Origin: Geobacter sp. UBA5730
Lineage (GTDB): Bacteria > Desulfobacterota > Desulfuromonadia > Geobacterales > Pseudopelobacteraceae
Length of the DNA stretch: 64,000 nt
Assembly (NCBI GenBank): GCA_002419465.1
Contig: DIGE01000010.1
Location: forward strand, 21,699-85,698
Reading direction: 5' to 3'
A program made the position numbers and the translations under genes. Shown in pieces: positions 26,688 to 56,514 of this stretch; position 1 is the first letter of the stretch; each line of letters begins with the position of its first letter. A model generated the notes under the pieces. It was not told where the DNA came from. It saw only the letters and a program-made list of their open reading frames with translations, and did no database searches.

Positions 26688-27413
26688 ATGACCTGGATTG
26701 ATTGGCATACGATCGACACAATCCTGCTGGATATGGACGGCACCTTGCTGGATCGTCATTTTGACGACCATTTCTGGTTGGAGCATGTGCCGAAACGCTG
26801 GTCGGCTCACCACAAGGTACCGCTCAAGCAAGCCCGTGAGCAGCTCTACGCGCTGTTTCGTTCCCAGGAGCGCACCCTGAACTGGACCGATCTGGATTAC
26901 TGGTCAGATCGCCTGGGGCTGGATATTCCTCAACTCAAGCTGGAGGTTGAGCACCTGATCGCCGTGCATCCCGGCGTGATGGAATTTCTGGCTTTCTGCC
27001 GGCAGCATGGCAAGCAACTCTGGCTGGTTACCAACGCCCATAGCAAAACCCTGGATATCAAGCTCAAAAAAACACCCGTTGGTCCCTGGTTCGACGGGAT
27101 CGTTTCTGCCCATCAGGTGGGACTACCCAAGGAAGATGTGCGTTTTTGGGACTATCTGCAGCGTTTTGTAACCTATGATCCTGGCCGGACCATGCTGGGT
27201 GAGGATACCGAAGCCAACCTGCAGACCGCCCAACAGTACGGCATCCGTTATCTGATCCATATCAGTCGGCCCAGTTCAGCCTTGATGCCGCAATGCTCTC
27301 GGCAGTATTGCTCAATAGAGTACTTCACTCAGCTGATCCCCGCCCCGAATGCTACCAGCGTCAGGATCTGTTCGCAGGAAGGAGATAGCTGCCATGTCAA
27401 CCAAGCTTTATGA
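26688..27413 (+). CDS. HAD-superfamily hydrolase (YrfG-like nucleotidase type)
   Basis: HAD motif I is LLDMDGTLLD, and a VTNAH segment is present. 241 aa. Confidence 0.75.
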   Translation: MTWIDWHTIDTILLDMDGTLLDRHFDDHFWLEHVPKRWSAHHKVPLKQAREQLYALFRSQERTLNWTDLDYWSDRLGLDIPQLKLEVEHLIAVHPGVMEFLAFCRQHGKQLWLVTNAHSKTLDIKLKKTPVGPWFDGIVSAHQVGLPKEDVRFWDYLQRFVTYDPGRTMLGEDTEANLQTAQQYGIRYLIHISRPSSALMPQCSRQYCSIEYFTQLIPAPNATSVRICSQEGDSCHVNQAL

Positions 27414-28500
27414 TGTCGTGATAATCGGTGGTGGTCCGGCCGGTCTGGCCACCGCGTACCTTTGTCATAAACATAACCTCTCGTACCTGGTGCTGGAATC
27501 GGGCAAAGCGGTCTTCCAAGGGATTGCCAACAGCTATCCGCAGGGTAAGCTGGTGTATGCCTCCAAGCCCAAGGATGCCCCGGAACCGTTTCTGGTGGAT
27601 GAGTTGCGGCCACCCGACAAACCGGTCACCGTGGAGAGTTATCTGCAGTATATCCAGCACTTTGTCCAGCATGAAAACCTGAATATCCAGACCGAGGTGA
27701 CCTTCGAGGATATCCGCGATGAGCGGGGCCAGCTGATCGTGGTGACCGGCAAGGGGCTCTTCAAGGGGCGCAAGGTGGTGCTGGCCTTCGGCAGCAGCAT
27801 CCCCCGCGAGTTGGCCGTCTATGGTGATGCCAAGATGGTTGCAAAAAATGTGGATGATCCTGCCAAATACGTAGGGCTGAAAACTCTGGTGATCGGTGGT
27901 GGGAATTCGGCGGCCGACGTGGTGATCGCCATCCTCAAGGCCAAACGTGAGCGCAATGACACCCAGCCGGTCTATTGGGCACATCAATCGGAAAGGTTTG
28001 ATGTCAACAAGGAAACCGCCCAACGGTTGGGAGAGGAGATCTTGCTGGGCGGCAGTATCCGCTTATTGCCGAACGCCACGCCTCGGATCGGCGAGGTGGA
28101 CGACGAGCAGGTGGATCGACTTTCAATCAGAATCAATGAGTTCAAACAGAGTGACGGCATCGATCTGTACCATGCCTTGAGTTTTCCGATGCAGAATGTG
28201 ATCGCCTGCATCGGCTCCCAGGGACCGGTGCCGATTTTTGACAAACTGGGCATCCAGACCATTTCGTGCACTGCCGGGGTTTGTAAGGTGGCCAAGGAAG
28301 GCGATCGTTTGGTGCTGCTCTCGGGTGGATTCGAGTCGACCCGCAAGGGGGTCTACGTGGTGGGCGGGGCGATTTCACCCTCTTACATGAAAATCTCCGA
28401 GGGGGCGATTCAGGAGGAGAAACACCCCAACCTGATCTATACTGCCGTGAATGATGCCTATCGGGTGGTGGAGGAGATTAAGGGCAAGCTTGGAAAATAA
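27394..28500 (+). CDS. FAD/NAD(P)-binding oxidoreductase (pyridine nucleotide-disulfide oxidoreductase-like)
   Basis: ATG at 27394. There are two Rossmann dinucleotide motifs (DVVIIGGGPAGL and LVIGGGNSAADV). No CxxC redox pair is seen. Confidence 0.75.
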   Translation: MSTKLYDVVIIGGGPAGLATAYLCHKHNLSYLVLESGKAVFQGIANSYPQGKLVYASKPKDAPEPFLVDELRPPDKPVTVESYLQYIQHFVQHENLNIQTEVTFEDIRDERGQLIVVTGKGLFKGRKVVLAFGSSIPRELAVYGDAKMVAKNVDDPAKYVGLKTLVIGGGNSAADVVIAILKAKRERNDTQPVYWAHQSERFDVNKETAQRLGEEILLGGSIRLLPNATPRIGEVDDEQVDRLSIRINEFKQSDGIDLYHALSFPMQNVIACIGSQGPVPIFDKLGIQTISCTAGVCKVAKEGDRLVLLSGGFESTRKGVYVVGGAISPSYMKISEGAIQEEKHPNLIYTAVNDAYRVVEEIKGKLGK

Positions 28501-29883
28501 TCAGCCTACCTCGGCGTACTCGCGTACCCGGAACTGCACCCCCAGGGATTCAGCCAGTCTGCGGCAGGCCTCCATGTCAACCCCCGGCACGGTGACCGCC
28601 GTAGCGGTTACGTCGGGGATGTAACGGGGGGCATCCCGCAGGAAGTCGCAGACCCCGGCGAAGCCCGCCTCGCCGAAGGGGGTGTTGCAGAGCCGACCAT
28701 AGGTAACGGCATCCGGAGCATTCAAGCTGATCGAGATGCTGTCAACCAAGCCTTCTAACTCAGGCAGGATGTTGCGGCCATGCACCAGGTTGGCCTGGCC
28801 ATCGCTATTGATCCGAATCGGGAATCCCCGTTTTTTCAGGGCTGTTGCCACCTGTTTGACCAGTTCCAGCCGCAGCAGTGACTCACCAAACCCACAGAAC
28901 ACCACCTCATCGATCCCTGTCGGTTGACCAATGGCAGCCATCACTTCCCCAAAGCCGGGTTCATGGTCCAACAGCAGGTTGTGCCCCTTGACGGTGAACT
29001 CATCAAACTTTGCACAGAATGTACAGCTGTTTGAACAGCGATTGGTGATGTTCAGGTAGAGGGAGTTGCGGATCCGGTAGGCGATCTTGCTTGATTCGTC
29101 CCACAGCGGAATGTTGAACAGCCGCCCGGCATTCATGGTGGTAATCCGCCCCACGTCATCCAGTGTCAACCCCTTCAGTTCAGCCACCTTTTCTGCCGTA
29201 ATCAGGGTATAGGCCGGTTCGTTACGCCTGCCCCGGTGTGGCACCGGCGGCAGGTAGGGGCAGTCGGTTTCCAGCAGCAACCGCTCCATCGGCATGGCCT
29301 GCACGACATCCCGCAGTTGCTGATTGGAAGGGTAGGTTACCGTGCCGGGGATCGAGATGTACAACCCCTGCTCCAGGCACTGGCGGGCAAAGTCACTATC
29401 ACCGGAGAAACAGTGCATTACCCCTTTGGTTACCCCGGCGGCCTTGATCTGCCCCAGGGTCTCCTGATGGGCGTCACGGTCATGAATTACCACCGGCTTG
29501 TCCAATTCCAGGGCCATCTGCAAAAAATGGCCGTACACGGTCCGTTGGGGGTCTCGCGGGGCTCGGTCGCGGTAGAAATCCAGGCCGATCTCGCCGATGG
29601 CAACGCATTTCGGGGTTGTCTGGGCCAGATGCTTGATCTCGCTGATGGTGGCTGCCGTGGCTGTGGCGACATCGTGGGGGTGAATCCCCACGGTGCAGTA
29701 GAGCTGCTCGTACCGGACGGCCAACTCCACGGCCTGTCTGCTTGATGCTAGATCGGCACCCACCACCACCATGCCCCGCACCCCGTTTTGGGATGCACGG
29801 GCCAGCATCTGTTCCCAATCCGCCTCAAAATCAGGGTAGTAGAGATGACAATGGCTATCTATCAAGCTGAGTTTTTGATCCAT
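28501..29883 (-). CDS. Fusion protein: TatD-family metal hydrolase plus TatD-associated radical SAM domain
   Basis: ATG at 29883 (MDQKLSLIDSHCHLY, the TatD HxH motif). The N-terminal ~260 aa are TatD-like. The C-terminal ~200 aa carry the CxxxCxxC cluster CSNSCTFC. Confidence 0.82.
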   Translation of the reverse strand: MDQKLSLIDSHCHLYYPDFEADWEQMLARASQNGVRGMVVVGADLASSRQAVELAVRYEQLYCTVGIHPHDVATATAATISEIKHLAQTTPKCVAIGEIGLDFYRDRAPRDPQRTVYGHFLQMALELDKPVVIHDRDAHQETLGQIKAAGVTKGVMHCFSGDSDFARQCLEQGLYISIPGTVTYPSNQQLRDVVQAMPMERLLLETDCPYLPPVPHRGRRNEPAYTLITAEKVAELKGLTLDDVGRITTMNAGRLFNIPLWDESSKIAYRIRNSLYLNITNRCSNSCTFCAKFDEFTVKGHNLLLDHEPGFGEVMAAIGQPTGIDEVVFCGFGESLLRLELVKQVATALKKRGFPIRINSDGQANLVHGRNILPELEGLVDSISISLNAPDAVTYGRLCNTPFGEAGFAGVCDFLRDAPRYIPDVTATAVTVPGVDMEACRRLAESLGVQFRVREYAEVG

Positions 29884-29893
29884 CAATGCGTCC

Positions 29894-30280
29894 CTATTGA
29901 GCAGCAGGCAGGTTGTCAACCTCACGCAGTGCTCGTTTGATGGCCCGTATGTCGAAGCCGTCCACCACCTGCTTGCCGTTGTCAAACACGATCACCGGCA
30001 CAATGTCGCCCTGCCAGGTCTTGTGCCACTCGTTGTAATAGATTTTGTTGCGCTTGATATCGCGGACCTCAAAAGGCAGTGCAAGCATGGCGAAATACCT
30101 TTCCGCCTTGGCGCAGTAGCCTCAGCCATAGGCCGTGTAGATGACGATCCGTTCCTTGGCCGGGATGGTGAAGTGCGACGGGGCAGGGGGAGTGGACGTA
30201 GCTGCCAGGGCGCTTGCAAGGGGAAACAGGGCGACGACGGAGAGGATAGCGGCGATTGATCTGAGTTGAAGAGTCAGCAT
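29894..30280 (-). CDS. Secreted glutaredoxin-like protein with in-frame TGA (probable selenocysteine) in a U-G-Y-C active site
   Basis: Hand translation from ATG 30280 gives MLTLQLRSIAAILSVVALFPLASALAATSTPPAPSHFTIPAKERIVIYTAYG-TGA(30122..30124)-GYCAKAERYFAMLALPFEVRDIKRNK... This continues in frame into listed ORF 29894..30088. The TGA replaces the first Cys of a Grx CGYC motif. Confidence 0.6.
30082..30110 (-). promoter_or_regulatory. SECIS-like stem-loop downstream of the in-frame UGA
   Basis: The mRNA segment CAAG-GCGG-AAAGGUAUU-CGCC-AUG-CUUG lies 12..40 nt after the UGA. Two short stems (CAAG/CUUG and GCGG/CGCC or GGCGG/UCGCC) close a G-containing apical loop. The fold was done by eye only. 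Confidence 0.4.
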
Positions 30281-30342: not shown

Positions 30343-31002
30343 TCAGTGGGGCAGCACCACCTCGAACAGCGTGCCGTTTTTTTCGATCTTAACCAGGTGA
30401 GTGCGGATCTCCACGATCCGGGCGCCAGCGACCTCAGCTCCTTCAGCCACCAGTAGATCATTGATCACGGCCCGACGCAACTTGCGGTTGTCGTGCCAGG
30501 CGATGCCGGACAGCTTGACCCCTTCGGGCGTACCCACCGTCACCGGTGCGGTCGAAACTTGCGCTGCCGCAGTTGCGGGGACGTTGGTTTGTCTGGTCCG
30601 TCGATTGGAGCGATCCTCTTTGTCTTCATCCGGGCTTGCTTGAGCCGGGGCAGCCGACGCCGCAGGCTGAACAGCCGGCACGGCAGCCGGAGCGGTTTGC
30701 GACGGCGGGGGAACAGCAGCAGGTGGGGGCGTCACCACCGTCGGCGGCTGCAGCGCAAGCTGCTGCTGTTCGGTTAGCGGCGTTTTGGGCCGGGCCTGCG
30801 TATTCGGACGCTGGATGAGCCAGAACGCTACAACGCCAATCATGAGCGCCACTGCGACCATGCCGGCCAGCAGGTAGTGTTTGGTCTTTTGGGGACGAGG
30901 GGCTCCGGCATCCAGCAGGATGCCGCCGGTAATAACACTCTGCTTTAGGTGGGCGGTCTTTTCTTCCTGTAGTTTTTGCAACGCGTCGAGAATATGGCTC
31001 AT
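30343..31002 (-). CDS. GspB/ExeB-like single-pass membrane protein with a Pro/Ala-rich linker
   Basis: 219 aa. N-terminus is MSHILDALQKLQEEK, followed by one TM segment. The C-terminus (LSGIAWHDNRKLRRAVINDLLVAEGAEVAGARIVEI) resembles the T2SS GspB C-terminal domain. Overlaps the exeA stop by 4 nt. Confidence 0.65.
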   Translation of the reverse strand: MSHILDALQKLQEEKTAHLKQSVITGGILLDAGAPRPQKTKHYLLAGMVAVALMIGVVAFWLIQRPNTQARPKTPLTEQQQLALQPPTVVTPPPAAVPPPSQTAPAAVPAVQPAASAAPAQASPDEDKEDRSNRRTRQTNVPATAAAQVSTAPVTVGTPEGVKLSGIAWHDNRKLRRAVINDLLVAEGAEVAGARIVEIRTHLVKIEKNGTLFEVVLPH

Positions 31003-32591
31003 GGGGTCTGTTCCGTTGTGGCGAGTGAGGGGATGCGAGTCGGATGGGAAAAGCGATACAGCTGCATCAGGGTCAGTACGCCAACGGTGCCGGTGGGGCT
31101 GATCCCCTGCCGGGTCTGAAAACGCAGCGTTGCGGCACGGAGTTGGGCATCCGAGTATGAGGTTCCTTCCAGATGCAGCACACCGGCGGCATTCAACAGA
31201 CGGGCCAGCTGCTCGCGCTGCGTCCCATCGGCATCACGGCCGAACGGCACCGGCAGGTCGGCCAGGTTGTCCCAGGGGATCAGCGCCTTGCCGGTCCAGT
31301 ACTGTTCAAGACGCTGCAGGGGGAGTTCCAGGGGGGTGTCGCTGCCGGTTGTCAGCACAACTCGTTCCTGCTGGATACCGGTCAGCAAGAGATACTGTTT
31401 GACGCCGGCCGGTGGCAGGGTGCACTCCAGCAGGGCAGGGTAGCCCAGCCGGATGATCCCTCCCAGGTTGCCGGTGTAGCGATAGGCAGACAGGCCAAGG
31501 GATTGGATGGCCTGTTCCGGTGACTCACCCACCCGCTTGACCGGGGGAGGGTTACCCCAGGCAGCGGCCAGGGCTGTCAACAGGGTCTGCCACTGATCCG
31601 TCTGACTGCCGGTTGTCAACCCGGTCATGCGTTGTTCAAGTGTGGCATCCGGTGCAGGGGGCCTGGAAGCGGTCAGCGGGCCGGGCAGGTAGAGCAGTGC
31701 CAGCGCTGCAACTGCCAGCAGCACGACGACCCCTGCAGTCCAAGCCATCAGGCGGGCCGGGCTGCGGGTCTCCTTGCGGGAGCGAGAAACGTCGGTAATC
31801 GCCTGTTTGGCAACGGCGGTATCAATCTGGCGGCTGTTGTGGTTGTAGGCGATCAGCAAGGCCCGGTCGGCAGCGGCATTGATCAGACGGGGCAGGCCGG
31901 CGGCAAAGCGGTGGATCGCCTTGCAGGCGCCGGTGCTGAAGACTGCCGGATCGCTGGCGCCGCCAGCCGCGGTCTTCAAGCGGTGCTTGAGGTAATCGCC
32001 GGTATCGGCCAGCTCCATCGAGGTCAGATGGAAACGGACCGTGATCCGTTGATTGAGTTGTCGCAGTTCGGGACGGGCCAGTAGTTCTTCAAGCTCGGGC
32101 TGGCCCACCAGGATGATCTGGATCAGTTTTTCCGAGGCGGTTTCCAGGTTGGACACCAGCCGCACCTGCTCCAGCACCTCCGGCTCCATATCCTGGGCCT
32201 CGTCGATCACCAGCACCGTGGCCTTGCCGGCCTGTTTCTGGCTGAGCAGGAACCGGTGCAGCTCCTCCACCAGTTCGGCCGGCTCACTACCCTGGTCCGA
32301 GATGCCGAACTCCCGGTTGATGGTGCGCAGCAGACCGCTTGACGACACCATCGGATTCAGGATCAAGGCCGTAGCGTGAGTCTCAGGCTTCAGCTCTGTT
32401 AGCAGGGTTCGGATCACCGTGGTTTTGCCGGCCCCCACTTCGCCGGTCAGCATGATGAAGCCGCAACGATTTTCGATGCCGTAGATCAGGTGGGCAAAGG
32501 CCTCCTGATGGGCACGGCTCAGGAAGATGAAGGCCGGGTTGGGCGTCAGGGTGAAGGGGCGTTCTTGGAAGCCGAAAAATGAGCAGTACAT
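30999..32591 (-). CDS. exeA: ExeA/GspA-like AAA+ ATPase with TM segment and C-terminal peptidoglycan-binding domain
   Basis: 530 aa. Motifs are FGFQERPFTLTPNPAFIFLSRAHQEA, Walker A GEVGAGKTT and Walker B VLVIDEAQ. It has a central TM helix and a C-terminal PG_binding_1-like repeat (AQLRAATLRFQTRQGISPTGTVGVLT). Confidence 0.85.
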   Translation of the reverse strand: MYCSFFGFQERPFTLTPNPAFIFLSRAHQEAFAHLIYGIENRCGFIMLTGEVGAGKTTVIRTLLTELKPETHATALILNPMVSSSGLLRTINREFGISDQGSEPAELVEELHRFLLSQKQAGKATVLVIDEAQDMEPEVLEQVRLVSNLETASEKLIQIILVGQPELEELLARPELRQLNQRITVRFHLTSMELADTGDYLKHRLKTAAGGASDPAVFSTGACKAIHRFAAGLPRLINAAADRALLIAYNHNSRQIDTAVAKQAITDVSRSRKETRSPARLMAWTAGVVVLLAVAALALLYLPGPLTASRPPAPDATLEQRMTGLTTGSQTDQWQTLLTALAAAWGNPPPVKRVGESPEQAIQSLGLSAYRYTGNLGGIIRLGYPALLECTLPPAGVKQYLLLTGIQQERVVLTTGSDTPLELPLQRLEQYWTGKALIPWDNLADLPVPFGRDADGTQREQLARLLNAAGVLHLEGTSYSDAQLRAATLRFQTRQGISPTGTVGVLTLMQLYRFSHPTRIPSLATTEQTP

Positions 32592-32596
32592 GGCTG

Positions 32597-33703
32597 CTAG
32601 TTATACTGCATTTTTTCAGCAGGCACAACGCTTGAGGCGTTTTTACGGGGTTGATCGGCAATCGTTCTTTCGGAAGTAACCAGTTCCGCCACCACCCGGC
32701 CGATCGGTGTGGTGGCCTCCACCCGCACCGGTACGCGATGGGAGTCGTCTGTCAGCCAGATCAGCAGCTCCTTATTGTTCTTGAAAAAGCCGTTTTCACT
32801 GAATGATGGTCTGATGAGCAGGGTTTCGGCAGAACGCATGCCGGGCAGGTTAAGCCGTTCCCGCCGCAGCACCGCCACCGGCACCAGGCTGATGGCATCA
32901 CCATCGTACAGGCGCAGCGTAACGGTCGCGCCGACGCTGAGGGGCTGCTGCCGCAGATAGTAAAAGCCGGCAATCACGTCCAGGGTGTCCAGATCGGTCA
33001 ACGGCTCCGTATTCGAGATCTTTCTGATCCGGTCCACCCAGAACAGCTTTTGTTCATGAAACATCAGGTTGAAGCCGGTATCACTTTCCATCAAGCCTTC
33101 ACGTTGCTTGATGCGGGTCAGCAGGTAGCGGCCCCTGATCAGGCGGGTATCGGTGCTGTTATGCACCGGGTAGATGGCCGAGATGACGCTGTTGGAACTG
33201 ACTGACGTGCGGATGCGCAGTTCGCCCTGCTGGTTGGTGGCCTCCAGATGGGCGTTGCCCACCGGCATGCCCAGCAGGCTGATCTGGTAGGTCAGCCGTT
33301 CCTGCTGCACCGGGACGATGGTGTCGGCACGCAGATAAACGGTTTCAGGCTGTGGGGCAGCTGCCTGCTCCGGTTGTGTTGGTTGGTGCTGTACATGGGC
33401 TGTGGTGTCGGTTGTTTCGGCAGACGTTTCCGGTGAGGTGGAAGACGCAGATGTGGTGATGATAGCCGGTTTTGCTGCGACTACCGCGGTTGTCTGGGGT
33501 GCACGGGCAGGTTGTTTGGCCGCAGCTGGCCGGTTCAGCTCCACCATGGTAACGGCTGGCTCAATCACCGGGAGACCAAACTGATGTGTTCCGAACCGTT
33601 CGATAACGATGACTGCCAGGCAGTGCGCTGCTATCGAAAGCACCAGGCAAACCACCGGTATTAGTTTGTTGTAGCAAAAGGTGGGGCGGTTTGTTTGGCG
33701 CAT
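32597..33703 (-). CDS. DUF3108-domain protein with N-terminal membrane anchor and Pro/Ala/Thr-rich linker
   Basis: ATG at 33703 (MRQTNRPTF...) is preferred. The longer ORF start at 33745 would be encoded by an intergenic hairpin. The C-terminal ~230 aa beta-rich region is DUF3108-like; that assignment is from memory. Confidence 0.6.
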   Translation of the reverse strand: MRQTNRPTFCYNKLIPVVCLVLSIAAHCLAVIVIERFGTHQFGLPVIEPAVTMVELNRPAAAKQPARAPQTTAVVAAKPAIITTSASSTSPETSAETTDTTAHVQHQPTQPEQAAAPQPETVYLRADTIVPVQQERLTYQISLLGMPVGNAHLEATNQQGELRIRTSVSSNSVISAIYPVHNSTDTRLIRGRYLLTRIKQREGLMESDTGFNLMFHEQKLFWVDRIRKISNTEPLTDLDTLDVIAGFYYLRQQPLSVGATVTLRLYDGDAISLVPVAVLRRERLNLPGMRSAETLLIRPSFSENGFFKNNKELLIWLTDDSHRVPVRVEATTPIGRVVAELVTSERTIADQPRKNASSVVPAEKMQYN

Positions 33704-33719
33704 AGTGTTCAGGTAAAGA

Positions 33720-33742
33720 CCGCCCCCTGAGTCAGGGGGCGG
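33720..33742 (-). terminator. GC-rich hairpin between the lipoprotein gene and the DUF3108 gene (possible attenuator or terminator)
   Basis: CCGCCCCCTGA-G-TCAGGGGGCGG palindrome. It belongs to the same CCGCCCCC/GGGGGCGG hairpin family as the terminator at 34234..34260. Only a weak T-tract follows on the minus strand. Confidence 0.35.
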
Positions 33743-33753
33743 CACGAGGCAGG

Positions 33754-34345: not shown

Positions 34346-36424
34346 TTACGGACGGGTTGCAACTCCAGTAGTTGCATTTGCATTCAGCCATAGTGCGGCT
34401 TCGGGATAAGCTGTAACCATTGCAGGGCTAAGGGTAATAGTGCCATCCAATACCCCGTTATCCATCCAGTCAATGGAGTCAAAGATAAGCCGTTTGACAT
34501 AAGTTCTGTTATGAACATATGCAGCAGGTTCGTCAGCGTAAATCTTGGCATTTTGATAGGCACCATAGGCATTGTCTGGAACTGCAGTAGTGTCGCTATA
34601 GTTGCCGGCTCCGATCGCAAGATTCAGGTAGTTTATATAACCTGCCAAGTTTGAAACGTAGTTGTTCAGGATTGTTGTTGCCTGGTTGTAACCAAGTTTT
34701 TCTTCATCGAGTTTGGCTACAGACATTTCATAGGCAGAACCAACAGTGTGGCAGGTATTGCAGAGTGCCTGATTGGTAATAGTTGTTCCGGTAACGGCAG
34801 CAAAGCTATGGCTCTTGTTGCCCATATGGCAGCTTGCGCAAGGACCAGACTCATTCAGACCAATCTTGTCATGCTGGAAGTGGGTAGTTGCATTAGTATA
34901 ATCTTTGCCAGCATATTCCCAGCCAATATGGGATTTTTCATTGAACATGAAGCCTGCAGTAGGAGCGTGATGTCCTTGGAATCTGCTGCTACGCGGGCTC
35001 TCCACGTTGCCGCGACCACCATGGCAGGTTGCACAGGCGGTTGATTTTCCAAGTCCGGTAATGACAACTGTCTGTCCTTGGTAGGTAAAGTCAAGTACTG
35101 CCTTGGTGGTGTTACGCAGGGTGCCTTTGCCGGCATTGCTGTGGCAACCCCAGCAATAGAGCACTTCTTTCTGTCCTGACGGCACGGTTGCAACGCCTGT
35201 AGAGGCCTTTACCCAACCAGACAGATGAGAGAAGTCATTACCTGCACCGGTGTTGTCGTACGTATCCGGGTTACTCAGGAAATTTGCGGCACCGGTTGCG
35301 GTGTGACATTTCTGGCAGGCACCACGATCTGGTGTGCCATCAGCTTTGGTTGTTTGCGTCCAAGGGTAATGTACCCATGCGTCACCAGTTGTGCTGTCAG
35401 CGCCTGCTGCCAGAACCGTAGCTACACTGGTAGCATTGGCATACTTCTGGGCTAGGATTTTGCCGGCATGGCTTGATTGAGACCAATCCGTGTAGATGGA
35501 CGGAGTTGTTGTAGCGCCGTACCGTGTACCGGTTTTTGCCTCATGCCCATGGCAGTCAAAGCAAGGGTTTTCACCCTTCATACGAATGTTGTAGCCTTCA
35601 ATTATTGCCGTTGTTGTTGGGTCATCATAGTGTGTGGTTGCAATGATACGATACCAGCTGGTTGGGTGGTATCCAACGGCGCCAGTCACTGCGCCGTTTA
35701 CTGTGGTTACGCCGTCTGCCAGCAGTTTGCTGCCGTTGTAGTTGTACATGGTGTGGCAGCTGGTGCAGAGGTTGAACTGGTTGTTTTTAGCACCGCTGGT
35801 TTTGCTGGGGTTCCAGGCAACGATGTTACCTGTAGTATCTTTTGCCAAAACACCGCGTAATCCACCGCCATGCTCATGGCAGGTCTCACACTTCATGCCG
35901 GTATATGCGCCGGTATATGCAGGAGGAAGACCACCAGCAATTACAGTGTTATCGCCGGTATAACCACTCTTGTTGGACAGTACGGCACCTTCATGGGTAT
36001 GGCAACGTACGCATACGCCGGAGGTGTGAGATGGCGTACCTTCAGCATGGTTGGATGTTTCAAATGCTGTATTGGCATTGGTTGCCTGGGCTGTCACGCC
36101 GTCATGACAGGTTGCACAGCGATTGGCATCTGGATTTGGGTAAGGGATCGGGCCAACGCCGTTGTGCTGGGCGCCGCCGCCGTGGCAGCTCTCACAACCA
36201 AGCCCTTCTTGGTTGTGAGGTGACGTCAACTGGTACTGGGTGATCTTGCTTTCGCCAGTCAGGGCCTCGGTAACAGCACTGTGGCACTGGATACAAGCTG
36301 TATCGCCGACGGTTGCCACGTTGTTGATCGATCCGCCAGACTTGCTGGACGAACCGCAGCCATACAGCAGTGCCGCCATCGGCAGCAGACAAAACAGCGT
36401 GATGGCTAATCTTCGCATCTGCAT
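34346..36424 (-). CDS. Dodecaheme c-type cytochrome lipoprotein (OmcB-like outer-surface component of a porin-cytochrome conduit)
   Basis: 692 aa with lipobox LLYGCGSS. I counted 12 CxxCH motifs by hand: CIQCH, CESCH, CATCH, CVRCH, CETCH, CTSCH, CFDCH, CQKCH, CWGCH, CATCH, CASCH and CNTCH. Confidence 0.88.
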   Translation of the reverse strand: MQMRRLAITLFCLLPMAALLYGCGSSSKSGGSINNVATVGDTACIQCHSAVTEALTGESKITQYQLTSPHNQEGLGCESCHGGGAQHNGVGPIPYPNPDANRCATCHDGVTAQATNANTAFETSNHAEGTPSHTSGVCVRCHTHEGAVLSNKSGYTGDNTVIAGGLPPAYTGAYTGMKCETCHEHGGGLRGVLAKDTTGNIVAWNPSKTSGAKNNQFNLCTSCHTMYNYNGSKLLADGVTTVNGAVTGAVGYHPTSWYRIIATTHYDDPTTTAIIEGYNIRMKGENPCFDCHGHEAKTGTRYGATTTPSIYTDWSQSSHAGKILAQKYANATSVATVLAAGADSTTGDAWVHYPWTQTTKADGTPDRGACQKCHTATGAANFLSNPDTYDNTGAGNDFSHLSGWVKASTGVATVPSGQKEVLYCWGCHSNAGKGTLRNTTKAVLDFTYQGQTVVITGLGKSTACATCHGGRGNVESPRSSRFQGHHAPTAGFMFNEKSHIGWEYAGKDYTNATTHFQHDKIGLNESGPCASCHMGNKSHSFAAVTGTTITNQALCNTCHTVGSAYEMSVAKLDEEKLGYNQATTILNNYVSNLAGYINYLNLAIGAGNYSDTTAVPDNAYGAYQNAKIYADEPAAYVHNRTYVKRLIFDSIDWMDNGVLDGTITLSPAMVTAYPEAALWLNANATTGVATRP

Positions 36425-36456
36425 ACTCTTTTCCTCCTTGTTGTTATGTTAGACAC

Positions 36457-37188
36457 CTAAAACGTTCCCGGCAGGTGGCACTTGAGACAAACCTTGACGC
36501 CACCGCGTTCTTTAAAGTTGCCGGCTTTCCAGTTGCGTGGATGGGGGCGAACCTTGCCGCTGCTGTGACATTGGATGCAAACATCGCCTTGCGGGTGACA
36601 GGTCTGGCACGACATCAGGTTGCGGCGTGCCTCGGCCGAGTGATCGATGGCCCAGTTTGAGGCAGCGTAAATCTGGTTGTTTGGTCCGGCGGGCCGGTGT
36701 GATTTGATCCGCAGCGATCCCTTGGGGAAGCGGGAGTGACAGTCGCTGCAGAACTTCTGGTTGTGGCAGCGGATACAGGCCTGTTGATTGTCTTTGGCCT
36801 TGATCGGGTGGATGCTGATAAAGTCGCTGCGGTGGTTTTTCGGCATGTAGTTGCGCTTGAAGGTCGGGGTGCGCAACGCCGGATCTATGCCACCGCCGAT
36901 ATGGCAATCGTTACAGAACGACTGTGCATGGCATTCGACACAGTTGGTGCCGGCCTTGCCGGCCAGGGCGCGGTGTTCCCCCATCCAGTCGGTGTTCTGG
37001 TGGTGCCGGCCTGCCCAGTCGTTGTCATGGGTCAGGGGGATACCTTGCTCTTTGTGACAGGAGTTACAGTCCTTCAACTCCATTTTGGCAAAATCTTTAT
37101 GCGACATCTTTTCAGCGCGGGACTGCTGCTGGTTGCATACGAGCAGCCCGTAGATCAGTAGCGCGCAGATGAAAAATACTTTCTTCAC
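36457..37188 (-). CDS. Periplasmic octaheme c-type cytochrome (OmaB-like)
   Basis: 243 aa with a signal peptide. It has 8 CxxCH motifs: CNSCH, CVECH, CNDCH, CIRCH, CSDCH, CQTCH, CIQCH and CLKCH. Confidence 0.88.
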   Translation of the reverse strand: MKKVFFICALLIYGLLVCNQQQSRAEKMSHKDFAKMELKDCNSCHKEQGIPLTHDNDWAGRHHQNTDWMGEHRALAGKAGTNCVECHAQSFCNDCHIGGGIDPALRTPTFKRNYMPKNHRSDFISIHPIKAKDNQQACIRCHNQKFCSDCHSRFPKGSLRIKSHRPAGPNNQIYAASNWAIDHSAEARRNLMSCQTCHPQGDVCIQCHSSGKVRPHPRNWKAGNFKERGGVKVCLKCHLPGTF

Positions 37189-37203
37189 AAAAATCCCCCC
37201 TTC

Positions 37204-38424
37204 CTAGAAGTCGTAGTTGAAAGCAACCCGGCCGGACCAGTCGTGTTCAAAGTGAAAAATATTGACGTTGTCCTGAACCCGTGCATCAAACGACATGGTC
37301 TTGTTGAGTTTGTAGCGGGTGCCCAACCAGTAGGTTTGGGCGTTGGATGAGCCGTTCATGCTGTCCTTCTGGTAGACGTCATAGGCCATTCCGCCGGCCA
37401 GTTGCAGGTTGGGATTGTAATCATACTGGATGTCGAGGGTGAAGCCGTCCAGATCACCGGCATAACCTTGGCGCCGGTCGTAGGCTAGGTCCAGCATCAG
37501 GGATTCAATCGGGCGCACCTTCAGGCCGGCCTCAAAGACGTGCCCTTCGGTGTTTGAGCCAAAATCCTGGTATTTGTATGCGCCACGCACGGCAAACATC
37601 TTGTTGATGGTGTAATCGGCGCGGATCACGCCTTCTTGATAACGATCCACCGCAAATACCGAATAGATGGAGGTGTAGTCGAATACCGGATAGCTCTGGA
37701 ACCATTCTCCGGTCAGTACTATGTTTTCGTTGACGAAATATTTTGCTCCGGCCATGACCTCGTCAAAGGTTTCACTGGCCATGTCAAAACGGGTGTTGCC
37801 GTACACCTTGAGACCGCCGAACAGGTAATGGCGGAACATACCGCCAATCTGTTCACGGGCGATGCCGTCCTTGTCAAACTTCAGGTAGTAGCTGATTTCG
37901 GCATCGGTGGTTGGATAGCCGGTCAGATAGGCGGCTGTGCCAAATACGTAATCCTTGGCGTTGGTCAACTCGCCATCGATGCCGTAAATGACGTTGCGGC
38001 CCCCCATGACCGAGAAGGCCACCGGACCGATGTTTTTCAGGTCGATCATACCGCCGTCAATCAGGGAGCTGCCAGCGGCATAGTTGACAAACTGTCGTCC
38101 GGCCCGGATGTCAACCTTGTCCAGCAGATCCCGATAGTCAGCGTACAGGTAAAACAGTCGGCCATCGAAACCATCGCCATTCATCACATCCTGGCTTATC
38201 CGTCCATACCCGTGCAACGACAATTTTTTGTCCGGGTCAATGTTGATGAGCGAAAAGTTGAGATGCTGGGCGAATTCAGCCTGTTTTTTCTCGTTGAAGA
38301 TGTTGTTGAACCAGAGGTACTGGGTTGACGCTCTACCGTGCAGTTCTGCTGCCAGCGATGAAGAAGCTGTCAGCAGCACTGTCCCGAAGAGCACTGTGCG
38401 GAGTAATCCCATTGCATACCCCAT
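37204..38424 (-). CDS. Porin-like outer-membrane beta-barrel protein (OmbB-like)
   Basis: 406 aa with a signal peptide (SSSLAAE). It shows an alternating beta-strand pattern rich in Tyr/Gly/Asp and a C-terminal FNYDF with terminal Phe. It has no heme motifs and is the first gene of the three-gene unit. Confidence 0.75.
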   Translation of the reverse strand: MGYAMGLLRTVLFGTVLLTASSSLAAELHGRASTQYLWFNNIFNEKKQAEFAQHLNFSLINIDPDKKLSLHGYGRISQDVMNGDGFDGRLFYLYADYRDLLDKVDIRAGRQFVNYAAGSSLIDGGMIDLKNIGPVAFSVMGGRNVIYGIDGELTNAKDYVFGTAAYLTGYPTTDAEISYYLKFDKDGIAREQIGGMFRHYLFGGLKVYGNTRFDMASETFDEVMAGAKYFVNENIVLTGEWFQSYPVFDYTSIYSVFAVDRYQEGVIRADYTINKMFAVRGAYKYQDFGSNTEGHVFEAGLKVRPIESLMLDLAYDRRQGYAGDLDGFTLDIQYDYNPNLQLAGGMAYDVYQKDSMNGSSNAQTYWLGTRYKLNKTMSFDARVQDNVNIFHFEHDWSGRVAFNYDF

Positions 38425-52368: not shown

Positions 52369-52501
52369 TTATTTCTGCTGCATAGATTCGGCAAGCAGCA
52401 GGGCTTTGAAACCAACTGCGGCAGCCCAAAAACCCCAACATGGCCCCGATCATCATCCGGGCGATAAGCAGTGCCTGGACCTGAGCCAAAATATAGATCC
52501 C

Positions 52502-53737
52502 ATGCAATCCCAGCGATCGATCATACACCTGGATATGAACGCCTTCTTTGCCTCGGTGGAACAGCAGGCCAACCCCGCCTTGCGCGGCAAGCCGATTGCC
52601 GTAGTGGGCTCCGGCCACCGCACCGTGATCACCACCGCTTCCTATGAGGCTCGCAGTTTCGGGGTCAAGACCGGCATGGCGATCTGGGAGGGCCAGCGGG
52701 CCTGCCCTGGCTTGATCATTGTGGTGGGGGACAACAAAAAATATACCCATACCTCCCGGCAGATCATCGCCCTGCTGCGGGAATACACCCCCCTGGTGGA
52801 GGTGTTCTCCATCGACGAGGCTTTCCTGGATGTGACCCATTCCAGCGCCCTGTTCGGGCCGGCAGAGACCATCGCTTACCAGCTCAAGGCTCGCATCAGG
52901 CACGGACTGGGCCTGACCTGTTCCATCGGCATCGCCCCCAACAAGCTGCTGGCCAAGCTGGCCAGTGATATGCAGAAGCCGGACGGCCTGACGATCATAC
53001 CGCCGGACAGGGTGGGGGCCATCCTGGAGCATATTCCGATCGGTGACCTGTGCGGCATCGGCAAAAAGACTCAGCGGCAGCTGAACCTGCTGGGCATCAC
53101 CACTTGTGGGCAACTGGGCCGTTTTCCGGAGGAGTTGTTGCGCAAAAAATTCGGGATTGTCGGTCCACGGCTCAAACAGATGGGGCAGGGGCGGGATGAC
53201 GGTCCGGTGCTGCCGGTGGAAGAGGAGGACGGCGTCAAGAGTGTCGGTCACTCCATGACCTTGCAGCGGGATGTTGCTACCCGTGATGAAATCCTGCGCT
53301 ACCTGCTGCAGTTGTCGGAGATGGTTGGCAGGAGGGCACGGCGCTATGGCGTCACTGCCAAGACGGTCAGCCTCTCCATCCGTTTTGCCGATTTTTACTC
53401 CAGTGTCCAGCGCCAAACCACCGTGGTGAGCCCGATCAGCCTCAGTGATGAGATCTTCAAGGTTGCCACCAGCCTGCTGGACAGCATCGAGCTGCACCAG
53501 GCGGTCAGGCTGTTGGGGGTCAGCCTCTCCAACCTGCAGCACAACCAGCAGCAGCTTTCGCTGTTTGAGGAAGAACGCAGGAAGTCGGAAGCCACCCGGG
53601 CCATGGATGCCGTGAATGACCGCTTCGGCGACTACAGCGTCACCTTTGGCAGCCTGCTGCAGAGTGAGGAAAAAGGCTCCCACGTAATCTCACCGGCCTG
53701 GCGGCCGGAGGGGATCAGAAACGTGGGGGTGGAGTAG
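52502..53737 (+). CDS. dinB: DNA polymerase IV
   Basis: ATG at 52502 gives MQSQRSIIHLDMNAFFASVEQ. Y-family motifs are present (SIDEAFLDVT, IGIAPNKLLAKLASD). Confidence 0.92.
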   Translation: MQSQRSIIHLDMNAFFASVEQQANPALRGKPIAVVGSGHRTVITTASYEARSFGVKTGMAIWEGQRACPGLIIVVGDNKKYTHTSRQIIALLREYTPLVEVFSIDEAFLDVTHSSALFGPAETIAYQLKARIRHGLGLTCSIGIAPNKLLAKLASDMQKPDGLTIIPPDRVGAILEHIPIGDLCGIGKKTQRQLNLLGITTCGQLGRFPEELLRKKFGIVGPRLKQMGQGRDDGPVLPVEEEDGVKSVGHSMTLQRDVATRDEILRYLLQLSEMVGRRARRYGVTAKTVSLSIRFADFYSSVQRQTTVVSPISLSDEIFKVATSLLDSIELHQAVRLLGVSLSNLQHNQQQLSLFEEERRKSEATRAMDAVNDRFGDYSVTFGSLLQSEEKGSHVISPAWRPEGIRNVGVE

Positions 53738-53880
53738 CCCTTTCGGTTCTGCTACAATGTCACATAATGAAATCTTAAGTGAACTTACCCCATTTCAAGA
53801 CGTATCTTGCCGCCGTTTATGGTCTGATAGCTGAAAAAGTTGTACAGACACTGACCAGCCTAGAATAAGAGGAGTCGAGC

Positions 53881-54573
53881 ATGAATCAATTAAATGTAAC
53901 CCAGGCCCGCACCGGGCTGATTGTCAAGCAGAACGCGCTGGTCCGCCAGGTGTACGCCTGGATGGGGCTGGGGCTTGCCATCACCGCCATGCTGGCGATG
54001 GTGACGGTTTCTTCTCCCGGCATGCTACAGGCCATTGTTGGCAACCGGCCGGTTTTTTATGGGTTGATGATCGGGGAATTGGCTCTGGTCTTCATCCTGT
54101 CCGGGGCGATCAATCGTCTCAGCGGCACGGTGGCCACCCTGCTGTTTCTGGGATACTCGGCCTTGAACGGTTTGACCCTTTCGGTCATCTTTATTGTCTA
54201 CACCGCTGACTCCATCGCCTCGACCTTCGCGGTTACCGCAGCCATGTTTGGCGCCATGAGCATCTATGGTTATCTGACCAAGAAAGACCTGACCTCCTGG
54301 GGAAGCTTTCTGTTCATGGGATTGATCGGGATTGTGATCGCCTCGTTGGTGAACATCTTCCTGCAGAGCAGTGCGGTTTCCTGGGTGGTTTCCGGCATCG
54401 GAGTACTGGTTTTTACCGGCCTGACCGCCTACGATACCTGGAAGATCAAAGCAATGGCAGCAGCCGGGGAAGAAGGCAGGAAGCCGGCCATTCTCGGCGC
54501 CTTGACCCTCTATCTTGATTTTATCAACCTGTTCCTGATGCTGTTGCGATTTATGGGCGGCAGGAGGGATTGA
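53881..54573 (+). CDS. Bax inhibitor-1/YccA-family membrane protein
   Basis: 230 aa with seven hydrophobic segments. VYAWMGLGLAITA and the C-terminal LYLDFINLFLMLLRF are typical of the family. Confidence 0.88.
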   Translation: MNQLNVTQARTGLIVKQNALVRQVYAWMGLGLAITAMLAMVTVSSPGMLQAIVGNRPVFYGLMIGELALVFILSGAINRLSGTVATLLFLGYSALNGLTLSVIFIVYTADSIASTFAVTAAMFGAMSIYGYLTKKDLTSWGSFLFMGLIGIVIASLVNIFLQSSAVSWVVSGIGVLVFTGLTAYDTWKIKAMAAAGEEGRKPAILGALTLYLDFINLFLMLLRFMGGRRD

Positions 54574-54717
54574 TTCCCGTAGGATCTGTTGGCTGCAATT
54601 ATTTAGACCTTTCAATGGGAGCCACAGCCCGTGGTCACTGATACAAGGTGATGATGTAATTGCAGCTGAGCGTCACCACATGGCGCACCGGCACCACAAC
54701 GTTGCAAAGAGGATTGT

Positions 54718-56265: not shown

Positions 56266-56510
56266 ACTACTACGACAAGATGACGGTCTCAGAATTGATT
56301 GAAGCACTGAAAAACTACCCGCCCGATGCCCGTGTGGTGGTGCTGGGGTATGAGTCCGGCTATGACGATATCACATTGATAAAGCAGGTTGCTATTCTGC
56401 CGGAAGACAATCCTTCCTGGTTCAATGGCCGCTATGATGATGCCCCGCCTGAACAGGCCGCTTCAGCAGAAAAGGCTGTGCTGCTGCATGGCCGGAATGC
56501 GGAGGAATAG
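56262..56510 (+). CDS. Hypothetical small protein
   Basis: 82 aa. Its start overlaps the hsdM stop (ATGA). I recognise no motif. Confidence 0.45.
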
Positions 56511-56514
56511 CGGG

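What the first reader, a model, noticed from the sequence alone, without database searches (positions are those of the whole stretch)
29894..30280. Hidden selenoprotein: secreted glutaredoxin-like gene with UGA in the CxxC active site
- The ORF track shows only a 64-aa fragment (29894..30088).
- Reading the minus strand from ATG 30280 in the same frame adds 64 more codons. These encode a signal peptide (…FPLASA-LAA…) and a beta-strand, IVIYTAYG.
- This stretch is interrupted only by TGA at 30122..30124.
- The TGA is followed by GYCAKAERYF, so the motif reads U-G-Y-C exactly where glutaredoxins carry CGYC/CPYC.
- A hairpin with a G-containing apical loop lies 12-40 nt downstream (30082..30110), at the distance expected for a bacterial SECIS element.
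- Sec/Cys exchange in thioredoxin-fold redox motifs is well established in Deltaproteobacteria.
- Standard gene callers would truncate or miss this gene.
Basis: partly seen in the sequence, partly recalled or inferred. Interest (0 to 1): 0.8.

Follow-up and report, generated by a model that had tools for sequence, protein, structure and literature searches.

The report
Hidden exported selenocysteine glutaredoxin gene
This is a real 128-codon gene for a small exported glutaredoxin-like redox protein whose catalytic residue is selenocysteine encoded by an in-frame UGA; gene callers cut it in half here and in every related Geobacteraceae genome examined, but selenocysteine-containing glutaredoxins are an already known kind of protein.

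Summary

- **The gene.** Window 29894..30280 (−) is one reading frame with a single TGA at 30122..30124. With U read as C, the Pfam Glutaredoxin domain spans the TGA.
- **Homologues.** I read the DNA of 15 other distinct loci, 34–77% identical. They include *Trichlorobacter lovleyi*, *T. thiogenes*, *Geomonas diazotrophica* and Geobacter MAGs. All have TGA at the same codon (G-U-x-[Y/H/F]-C). Other family members have Cys there.
- **Selection.** dN/dS upstream of the TGA is 0.09–0.67.
- **Hairpin.** A 7-bp hairpin lies 14 nt after the UGA and meets every published bacterial SECIS constraint. It pairs in 13 of 13 sequences, covaries (CG:6, UA:6, UG:1), and is lost or rearranged in Cys forms.
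- **Genetic code.** TGA is an ordinary stop elsewhere in the window.
- **Export.** All members carry a signal-peptide or lipobox-like N-terminus.
- **Closest structure.** It is *Clostridium oremlandii* cGrx1, a verified selenoprotein.
- **Synteny.** A TatD–radical SAM fusion gene follows directly in most loci.
- **Annotation.** Databases hold only 62–73-aa "hypothetical protein" fragments.
- **Not shown.** selA, selB, selC and selD could not be checked for this genome.

Novelty: a new, unannotated member of a known kind. Interest is moderate.

The parts
29894..30280 (-). Complete selenoprotein gene: 128 codons (ATG 30280 to TAG 29894-29896), read through one UGA
   Evidence: frame. (Glutaredoxin domain across the TGA). 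(full-length TGA-containing orthologues).
30122..30124 (-). Sec codon (UGA, residue 53), first position of the U-G-Y-C redox motif
   Evidence: TGA sits at the aligned codon in the 16 distinct loci read as DNA, window included. Cys occupies this column in P0004, P0011, P0013, P0018 and P0019.
30089..30107 (-). SECIS hairpin GGCGGAA-AGGUA-UUUCGCC: 7-bp stem, 5-nt loop, loop starts 21 nt after the UGA
   Evidence: paired in 100% of cells in 13 sequences; pair 20-34 is CG:6, UA:6, UG:1; RNAalifold predicts it independently. It meets the bSECIS constraints quoted. It is lost or rearranged in Cys forms.
30209..30280 (-). Predicted Sec-type signal peptide (residues 1 to about 24-26; R7, hydrophobic core SIAAILSVVALFPL, ASA/ALA cleavage motifs)
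   Evidence: heuristic n/h/c-region check, positive in all 18 family members. AF2 places an N-terminal helix separate from the fold in a Cys homologue. No SignalP was run.
29981..30148 (-). Glutaredoxin domain (PF00462 match, residues 45-100): beta1 IVIYT, UGYC at the start of alpha1, cis-Pro loop GDIVP, VDGFD motif
   Evidence: (V94 and P95 invariant).
28501..29883 (-). TatD-radical SAM fusion gene (TIGR00010 + TIGR04038) starting 10 nt after the selenoprotein stop; probable operon partner
   Evidence: both models above cutoff; the same gene directly follows the Grx-like gene in L007, L009-L017, L024-L027.

Best explanation
Window 29894..30280 (minus strand) is a single gene for a selenoprotein of about 128 aa.

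**How it most likely works**
1. The ribosome reaches UGA at codon 53.
2. The 7-bp hairpin 14 nt downstream acts as a bacterial SECIS element and recruits SelB-GTP-Sec-tRNA(Sec).
3. Selenocysteine is inserted instead of terminating translation.
4. The product has an N-terminal Sec-type signal peptide of about 24-26 residues, so it is exported to the periplasm. In a sister subgroup it is probably lipid-anchored through an LLGC lipobox.
5. The mature protein is a glutaredoxin fold of about 100 aa, of the small YruB/cGrx1 type.
6. Its redox centre U53-G-Y-C56 sits at the N-terminus of helix alpha1. The selenolate attacks substrate disulfides or other oxidised groups, and Cys56 resolves the intermediate as a selenenylsulfide.
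7. So it acts as a thiol-disulfide oxidoreductase of the cell envelope.
8. It is probably co-transcribed with the TatD-radical SAM fusion gene that starts 10 nt downstream.

**Shown here:** a single conserved reading frame, the Sec/Cys pairing, the conserved and covarying hairpin, purifying selection on both sides of the UGA, the fold, and the synteny.

**Inferred:** actual Sec insertion, export, substrate, reductant, and any functional tie to TatD-rSAM.
For: **Domain across the TGA**
- The Glutaredoxin domain spans the TGA (34.8 bits against a cutoff of 22.9). The 64-aa fragment alone gets no Glutaredoxin hit.

**Conserved TGA**
- TGA lies at the same codon in L007, L008, L009, L012-L021, L025 and L027. 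These are 34-77% identical to the window. They include the complete T. lovleyi genome CP058409.1, T. thiogenes and Geomonas diazotrophica.

**Sec/Cys pairing**
- Cys occupies that position in P0004, P0011, P0013, P0018 and P0019. P0018 and P0019 belong to the same Trichlorobacter-like clade.

**Selection**
- dN/dS upstream of the TGA is 0.09-0.67 across the pairs compared, where dS could be estimated. Downstream it is 0.16-0.35.
- For window against L025 it is 0.47 at dS 0.54; for window against L012 it is 0.29.

**Hairpin**
- It is 100% paired in 13 sequences, with one compensatory pair (CG:6, UA:6, UG:1). Slid controls pair in 37-76% of cells. RNAalifold gives the same helix.
- Codons inside it are frozen: GAA, AGU/AGG, UUC.
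- Cys forms lose the hairpin or fold a weaker, different stem there: -1.7, -3.8 and -6.5 kcal/mol against about -7.4 to -10.7.
- All four bSECIS constraints are met.

**Genetic code**
- TGA is the stop of 6 of 20 confident genes and never occurs inside them.

**Export**
- Signal-peptide features are present in all 18 members checked.

**Fold**
- The AF2 model of Cys form P0018 has pLDDT 85.5, with CxxC at the start of helix 50-61.
- Best PDB matches include cGrx1 (7c10; TM 0.91, rmsd 1.1 A; profile E = 3e-14), which is natively a selenoprotein.

**Lineage**
- The three Geobacter species analysed by Zhang et al. 2006 each encode eight selenoproteins, including SelD and FdhA.
Against: - No selA, selB, selC or selD was found in the window or in the fetched loci, 342,567 bases in all with the window. 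The rest of this genome could not be searched.
- The hairpin alone is not significant in a single sequence: about 6% of random TGAs have one as good, and the fold z-score is 0.24.
- There is no clear Shine-Dalgarno sequence or promoter upstream of ATG 30280.
- Export was judged by simple heuristics only.
- An exported redox protein sharing an operon with a presumably cytoplasmic TatD-radical SAM enzyme is not explained.
- There is no expression or selenium-labelling evidence.
Confidence: 0.88

Rival explanations
1. Pseudogene: a recent TGC-to-TGA nonsense mutation inactivated a Cys-glutaredoxin-like gene, and nothing functional is made.
For: TGC and TGA differ by one base, and Cys-form homologues exist. 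Gene callers report only fragments.
Against: - The TGA is shared by 16 distinct loci, down to 34% identity, across several genera.
- Both halves remain open and under purifying selection.
- A hairpin coevolves with the TGA and is lost or rearranged where Cys is encoded.
Confidence: 0.02
2. Two separate small genes, or only the 64-aa C-terminal fragment is the real product; the upstream 52 codons would be an independent leader peptide or non-coding.
For: Databases list the 64-aa and 52-aa ORFs separately. An ATG at 30088 could start the fragment.
Against: - The 64-aa fragment lacks beta1, the redox motif and most of alpha1, so it cannot form a glutaredoxin fold.
- The internal start is not conserved: homologue fragments start at different columns.
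- The upstream half aligns with the signal peptide and beta1 of full-length Cys homologues.
Confidence: 0.03
3. UGA-53 is read through, but not as selenocysteine: near-cognate Trp or Cys insertion, or a lineage-specific reassignment of UGA.
For: Some metagenome pipelines translated the codon as W under code 4. Sec machinery was not demonstrated for this genome.
Against: - TGA is a normal stop for 6 of 20 genes and is absent inside the other genes.
- The codon aligns with the catalytic Cys of a CxxC motif, which is the classic Sec/Cys pair.
- The hairpin fits the SelB-type bSECIS model.
- The Geobacter species analysed by Zhang et al. 2006 encode selenoproteins, including SelD and FdhA.
Confidence: 0.05

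Closest known systems
Clostridium oremlandii cGrx1 (selenoprotein glutaredoxin 1; PDB 7c10 is the Sec-to-Cys form)
   Same: - Small YruB-type glutaredoxin fold with the catalytic Sec in a U-x-x-C motif at the start of alpha1.
- Best profile match in the PDB (E = 3e-14).
- Fold match TM 0.91, rmsd 1.1 A.
- Natively Sec-containing.
   Different: - cGrx1 is an 84-aa chain that starts at beta1, with no signal peptide, so it appears cytoplasmic. Its motif is U-P-H-C and it comes from a Firmicute. It is proposed to reduce selenoprotein MsrA.
- The window protein has a signal peptide of about 25 aa plus a linker, the motif U-G-Y-C, a Geobacteraceae origin, and a different gene neighbourhood (TatD-rSAM).
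- Sequence identity is only about 24%.
Geobacter sulfurreducens Sec-glutaredoxin (listed as Glutaredoxin (Grx), PF00462, UxxC; WP_010943784.1 in reviews)
   Same: Same Pfam domain, same UxxC motif type and a related lineage. By the review's criterion (domain plus motif) the window protein falls in this catalogued family.
   Different: - The G. sulfurreducens protein was reported as most similar to glutaredoxin 3 (GrxC).
- The window family scores only 22 bits on the GrxC model, whose cutoff is 90.
- The family profile search did not retrieve any G. sulfurreducens protein.
- I could not obtain that sequence to compare the two directly.
Thioredoxin-fold selenoproteins with UxxC motifs catalogued for Geobacter and relatives (Prx-like thiol:disulfide oxidoreductase, thiol:disulfide interchange protein, DsbA-like, DsbG-like)
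   Same: UxxC redox centre on a thioredoxin-type fold, found in the same organisms. From general knowledge, several of these are envelope proteins.
   Different: They have different Pfam domains (PF00578, PF13098, PF01323) and larger folds. The window protein is a minimal Grx fold.
UXX-star / distant Grx-like selenoproteins (NF041212, NF041114, NF041211)
   Same: Glutaredoxin-like fold related to the YruB family. This is the second-best NCBIfam match (39 bits).
   Different: - The score is below cutoff (66).
- The catalogued motifs differ (UxxT and GxGU, against UxxC here).
- From the family names and general knowledge, those proteins also carry Sec three residues from the C-terminus. The window protein does not.
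Grx-like Cys proteins with an N-terminal hydrophobic segment, some fused to DUF4124 (PF13511 + PF00462; named members from Pontibacterium and Agarilytica)
   Same: Remote homologues found by the family profile, with an N-terminal hydrophobic or signal segment and a C-x-Y-C motif.
   Different: They are Cys forms only. Some have an extra DUF4124 domain, and identity is about 20-35%. Only two members carry an organism name.

Membership tests
Bacterial selenoprotein gene | In-frame UGA aligned with a (catalytic) Cys in homologues (Sec/Cys pair) | tested here: met
   Column C53 of A5 is TGA in the 12 Sec-form rows and Cys in P0004, P0011 and P0013. It is also Cys in P0018 and P0019.
Bacterial selenoprotein gene | UGA-containing orthologues in other organisms with conservation on both sides of the UGA | tested here: met
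   15 further distinct loci carry TGA at that codon. dN/dS is below 1 both upstream and downstream.
Bacterial selenoprotein gene | bSECIS element: 3-9 nt apical loop, 4-16 bp stem, G in the first two loop positions, 16-37 nt from UGA to loop, MFE <= -7.5 kcal/mol | tested here: met
   - Loop AGGUA (5 nt; G at position 2, followed by G), 7 bp, spacing 21 nt.
- MFE is -8.9 kcal/mol with flanks and -7.4 for the bare hairpin. Constraints as quoted.
- Conserved and covarying.
Bacterial selenoprotein gene | Genome encodes selA, selB, selC (tRNA-Sec) and selD | not testable with these tools
   None in the window or in the fetched loci. Geobacter species are reported to encode selenoproteins, including SelD and FdhA.
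Bacterial selenoprotein gene | Selenium is actually incorporated into the protein | not testable with these tools
   Needs 75Se labelling or mass spectrometry.
Glutaredoxin fold (Pfam PF00462) | Score above Pfam's gathering threshold | tested here: met
   34.8 bits against 22.9, residues 45-100, with U read as C.
Glutaredoxin fold (Pfam PF00462) | beta-alpha-beta-alpha-beta-beta-alpha topology with CxxC at the N-terminus of alpha1, and a cis-Pro loop | tested here: met
   AF2 of in-clade Cys form P0018: E41-45, H50-61 (CSYC at 49-52), E67-70, H75-84, E92-95, E100-103, H107-117; pLDDT above 90 in the domain. V94 and P95 are invariant. Fold matches to Grx structures.
Glutaredoxin fold (Pfam PF00462) | Glutathione-dependent activity | not testable with these tools
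   A biochemical property. A periplasmic location would make glutathione dependence doubtful.
Glutaredoxin 3 / GrxC (TIGR02181), the type reported for the known G. sulfurreducens Sec-Grx | Score above the NCBIfam equivalog cutoff | tested here: not met
   22.4 bits against a cutoff of 90.
YruB-family glutaredoxin-like protein (TIGR02196) | Score above the NCBIfam cutoff | tested here: not met
   49.1 bits against a cutoff of 88.55 for the window protein. It is the best-matching model for all 15 members (best E = 7e-18). So it is the nearest family, but the window protein does not reach its cutoff.
UXX-star glutaredoxin-like selenoproteins (NF041212) | Score above cutoff | tested here: not met
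   39 bits against a cutoff of 66. The window protein ends ...NLPAAQ-TAG with no second UGA.
Sec-dependent exported protein (signal peptide) | Positively charged n-region, hydrophobic h-region, small residues at -3/-1 (or a lipobox) | tested here: met
   All 18 family members pass a simple check. Window: R7, KD(12) = 2.63, ASA/ALA at residues 22-26. LLGC lipobox in L018 and L021. This is a heuristic only. Actual export was not tested.

The most novel reading that the evidence does not exclude
The exported Sec/Cys glutaredoxin-like protein and the TatD-radical SAM fusion enzyme form a conserved two-gene functional module of unknown role in Geobacteraceae. This would make it an exported glutaredoxin-type selenoprotein dedicated to a radical-SAM/TatD pathway, for example supplying or repairing a redox-sensitive envelope component. 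It would then be more than one more general thiol-disulfide oxidoreductase.
Probability: 0.15. Interest if true: 0.55.

Novelty: new member of a known kind. Interest (0 to 1): 0.4.

Why it matters
**Annotation.** A whole orthologous group is split or truncated in public databases. It includes complete genomes of cultured strains: T. lovleyi, Geobacter benzoatilyticus, Geoanaerobacter pelophilus and Geomonas sp. Red69. The entries are 62-73-aa "hypothetical protein" fragments. No NCBIfam model reaches its cutoff for the window protein, so automated pipelines will keep missing it. A curated model with a Sec exception would fix dozens of genomes and enlarge the known selenoproteome of Geobacteraceae.

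**Biology.** It adds an exported, minimal Grx-fold selenoprotein to the envelope redox machinery of metal-reducing bacteria rich in c-type cytochromes. It also flags a tight, unexplained gene pairing with the uncharacterised TatD-radical SAM fusion family (TIGR04038).

**Limits.** It does not change what is known about Sec decoding or about the chemistry of Sec-glutaredoxins.

Tried and rejected
- Word-indexed protein search with the 128-aa product (U as C): no hit.
- First genome scan with exact 8-mer patterns: no relative.
I used the 75 aa after the TGA instead.
- A 12-sequence alignment was too diverse for pattern design. A 5-sequence one worked.
- Six metagenome or MAG copies of the window were 99.8-100% identical and so uninformative.

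**Sec machinery**
- ARAGORN, Rfam, motif scans for SelD/SelB/SelA, and NCBIfam annotation of size-compatible ORFs (which turned out to be thrC, fumC, dinB, lgt, a KamA-family radical SAM protein, purM, cheB, holA and cheR) found none in the window or loci.
- Two look-ups to extend the window ends failed.

**Literature**
- Searches for Sec in T. lovleyi / Trichlorobacter, and for a selenoprotein-TatD-radical SAM link, returned nothing relevant.
- Kim et al. 2011 is not held.

**Other**
- The promoter/terminator scan found nothing.
- Rejected readings: pseudogene, two small genes, and a TGA-sense code. See the rival explanations.
- Other TGA-joined ORF pairs in the window mostly lie antisense to, or out of frame with, annotated genes and were judged to be chance. 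None was examined further.

Full report
**1. The observation**

On the minus strand, the frame from ATG 30280 to TAG 29894-29896 holds 128 codons. One in-frame TGA at 30122-30124 interrupts it. The mechanical ORF list shows only a 64-aa piece (29894..30088) and a 52-aa piece (30122..30280).

With the UGA read as Cys, the product matches Pfam Glutaredoxin above threshold: 34.8 bits against 22.9, over residues 45-100, which crosses the UGA. The 64-aa fragment alone gets no Glutaredoxin hit.

Single-sequence evidence is weak by itself:
- The window has more than 30 other ORF pairs joined by TGA.
- The 65-nt region after the UGA does not fold better than shuffles (z = 0.24).
- About 6% of all TGA triplets in the window are followed by an ungapped hairpin at least as good.

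**2. Comparative evidence**

The first searches with the whole product found nothing. An exhaustive HMMER search with the 75 residues after the UGA found 15 relatives. They fall into three groups:
- Full-length proteins with a hydrophobic N-terminus and Cys at the U position: P0004 (CSYC), P0011 (CSHC), P0013 (CRYC).
- Fragments that start just after the redox motif: P0003, P0005, P0007, P0008.
- P0002, with "W" at the U position.

Reading the DNA gave two results. P0002's W is a TGA. The fragments also have an upstream in-frame TGA, preceded by a beta1 strand and a signal peptide.

A pattern scan of species-representative genomes then gave ten loci: Trichlorobacter sp., T. thiogenes, Geomonas diazotrophica, Geobacter sp., and Geobacteraceae or "Deltaproteobacteria" MAGs. 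All ten have TGA at the same codon, within G-U-[G/S/T/L/P]-[Y/H]-C.

The closest relative (L025, 77% identical over the fragment) and the complete genome of T. lovleyi (CP058409.1, L027) show the same. That makes 16 distinct TGA-containing loci, the window included.

A profile search added Cys forms from inside the same clade (P0018 and P0019, CSYC). It also showed that NCBI and UniRef hold only 62-73-aa fragments for T. lovleyi, Geobacter benzoatilyticus, Geoanaerobacter pelophilus and Geomonas sp. Red69. They are named "hypothetical protein" or "glutaredoxin family protein".

The same search identified the window's organism. P0039 is 98% identical to the window's 64-aa fragment and comes from the contig of L006. 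NCBI names it Trichlorobacter sp..

**3. Selection**

| Pair | dN/dS upstream of UGA | dS upstream |
|---|---|---|
| window vs L025 | 0.47 | 0.54 |
| window vs L012 | 0.29 | 1.49 |
| L015 vs L016 | 0.09 | 0.73 |
| L027 vs L014 | 0.11 | 0.89 |
| L027 vs L015 (highest) | 0.67 | 0.17 |

These are Nei-Gojobori estimates for the 52 codons upstream of the UGA. Where dS could be estimated downstream, dN/dS there is 0.16-0.35. So the "missing" half is coding sequence in this frame. This excludes a recent pseudogene and a non-coding leader.

**4. The SECIS element**

In all Sec forms, nucleotides 18-24 after the U of UGA pair with nucleotides 30-36. The window sequence is GGCGGAA-AGGUA-UUUCGCC, at coordinates 30089..30107.

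On an ungapped 13-sequence alignment:
- 100% of cells are paired, against 37-76% when the 3' arm is slid by 1-3 columns.
- Pair 20-34 is CG in six sequences, UA in six and UG in one.
- RNAalifold finds the same helix unaided.
- The covariation involves coordinated amino-acid changes (Ala to Val with Ala to Thr).
- Codon choice inside the helix is frozen: always GAA, AGU or AGG, and UUC.

The Cys forms use other codons. In the same 25-nt sub-window they fold at -1.7 (L026), -3.8 (L023/L024) and -6.5 kcal/mol (L022), and with different stems. Sec forms fold at -7.4 to -10.7.

The element meets every constraint of the published bacterial SECIS model (quoting PMC13188914):
- a 3-9 nt apical loop;
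- a 4-16 bp stem;
- G in the first two loop positions, followed by G or U;
- 16-37 nt between the UGA and the loop (here 21);
- MFE <= -7.5 kcal/mol. The window's value is -8.9 with flanks, and borderline at -7.4 for the bare hairpin.

**5. Genetic code**

TGA terminates 6 of 20 confidently annotated genes in the window and never occurs inside them. So UGA-53 is a site-specific recoding event and the genome does not use a reassigned code.

**6. The protein**

All 18 family members checked have the same N-terminal layout: K/R, then a strongly hydrophobic 12-residue core (Kyte-Doolittle 2.4-3.2), then AXA-type sites. L018 and L021 instead have an LLGC lipobox. In the window these features are R7, SIAAILSVVALFPL, and ASA/ALA at residues 22-26.

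AlphaFold2 on the in-clade Cys form P0018, with a 20-sequence alignment, gave mean pLDDT 85.5. The model has an N-terminal helix (3-18), a low-confidence linker, and a confident beta-alpha-beta-alpha-beta-beta-alpha fold. CSYC lies at residues 49-52, at the start of helix 50-61.

Sequence-profile and fold searches of the PDB agree on the closest structures. These are the small glutaredoxins cGrx1 (7c10; E = 3e-14; TM 0.91; rmsd 1.1 A) and cGrx2 (4tr0) of Clostridium oremlandii, and the thioredoxin-like BC3987. cGrx1 is natively a selenoprotein with a U-P-x-C site, and Sec was replaced by Cys for crystallography (PMC7642778).

The family also keeps V94-P95, which I read as the glutaredoxin cis-Pro loop, and a V-D-G-[F/C/Y]-D motif.

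**7. Context**

A TatD-radical SAM fusion gene starts 10 nt after the stop. It scores above cutoff on TIGR00010 (278 bits) and on TIGR04038, "TatD family nuclease-associated radical SAM protein" (276 bits). The same gene directly follows the Grx-like gene in L007, L009-L017, L025 (cut at the contig end), L027, and the Cys-form loci L024 and L026.

It does not follow the gene in the lipoprotein-type subgroup L018-L021. In L018 the neighbours are a sensor kinase, a sigma-54-type regulator and a transporter.

Upstream in the window, on the same strand, lie a 219-aa Pro/Ala-rich protein, an ExeA-like AAA+ protein with a peptidoglycan-binding domain, and a DUF3108 protein. This arrangement is shared only with the near relative L012.

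**8. Sec machinery**

None was found. The checks were:
- tRNA and Rfam scans;
- motif scans over 342,567 bases of window plus fetched loci;
- annotation of ORFs with sizes compatible with SelA or SelD.

The rest of the genome could not be reached. That the lineage decodes Sec is therefore an inference. It rests on the maintained UGA, hairpin and open frames, and on published selenoproteomes of Geobacter species that include SelD and FdhA (PMC1794560).

**9. Comparison with what is known**

"Glutaredoxin (Grx), PF00462, UxxC" is listed among experimentally verified prokaryotic selenoprotein families. A glutaredoxin selenoprotein was reported in G. sulfurreducens in 2006. By the review's own criterion (domain plus Sec motif), the window protein belongs to that kind.

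It is probably not the same subfamily as the G. sulfurreducens protein:
- That protein was described as most similar to glutaredoxin 3.
- The window protein scores 22 bits on the GrxC model, whose cutoff is 90.
- Its best match is the YruB family, at 49 bits against a cutoff of 88.55.
- The family profile retrieved no G. sulfurreducens protein.

No family described as an exported or TatD-linked Grx-like selenoprotein appears in the review's table, which the review counts at 119 entries. No paper in the library links a selenoprotein with TatD and radical SAM.

**10. Verdict**

The finding is real and correctly interpreted. It is a bona fide, unannotated selenoprotein gene with a textbook Sec/Cys pair and a covarying SECIS element.

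It is a new member of a known kind: an apparently undescribed subfamily that carries a signal peptide. It is not a new mechanism. The practical value is in annotation, because a whole Geobacteraceae orthologue group is truncated in databases.

The open biological questions are its envelope substrate and the meaning of its tight pairing with the TatD-radical SAM gene.

Noticed in passing
window 28501..29883 (-): TatD nuclease-radical SAM fusion (TIGR04038) starts 10 nt after the selenoprotein stop. The Grx-like/TatD-rSAM gene pair is conserved in 13 other distinct loci, including Cys-form loci L024 and L026. The function of this fusion family is unknown, and an exported redox partner is unexpected.
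   Followed up: partly
window 28501..29985 (-): The mechanical ORF list gives a 494-aa TTG-started ORF that overlaps the 3' end of the selenoprotein gene. The real TatD-rSAM start is ATG 29883 (460 aa), which matches the gene calls in the metagenome copies.
   Followed up: yes
window 27349..28500 (+): An FAD/NAD(P)-dependent disulfide-reductase-like protein (weak YpdA / thioredoxin-reductase-type matches) lies convergent with the TatD-rSAM gene. It is conserved next to the module only in the near relative L012. Any redox link to the Grx-like protein is speculative.
   Followed up: no
window 34346..38424 (-): A cluster of a 692-aa multihaem c-type cytochrome plus 243-aa and 406-aa proteins that have no Pfam hit on record. 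The cytochrome has weak hits to the GSU2203 decahaem family and to the UshA-like (seleno)protein model. It may be an extracellular electron-transfer conduit. I did not check it for further recoded UGA codons beyond a coarse scan.
   Followed up: no
window 30343..33745 (-): Upstream on the same strand lie a 219-aa Pro/Ala-rich protein, an ExeA-like AAA+ ATPase with a peptidoglycan-binding domain (530 aa), and a DUF3108 protein. The stop of the 530-aa gene overlaps the start of the 219-aa gene by 4 nt. This arrangement is shared only with L012.
   Followed up: partly
L007 (P0002); P0016, P0017: Some ENA/Logan gene calls show Trp at the Sec position. For P0002 the DNA confirms the codon is TGA, which points to translation under a TGA=Trp code. 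P0016 and P0017 show the same W but their DNA was not read. Such calls hide selenoproteins as apparently full-length W-containing proteins.
   Followed up: partly
L025 645..1644: In the closest relative, an HTH gene and an RHH/PemK toxin-antitoxin pair sit directly upstream of the Sec-Grx gene in place of the ExeA cluster. Only the Grx/TatD pair stays linked.
   Followed up: no
L018-L021: A sister subgroup in Geomonas and Geobacter has a different genomic context, without TatD-rSAM. L018 and L021 carry an LLGC lipobox. In L018 the gene lies between a sensor kinase/sigma-54 regulator pair and a transporter. The UGA and the hairpin are still conserved.
   Followed up: partly
window 52406..57555 (+): A DNA polymerase IV (dinB) gene is followed, after one more ORF, by a type I restriction-modification hsdM gene (54718..56265) and further ORFs. 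This may be a variable or defence region, unrelated to the finding.
   Followed up: no
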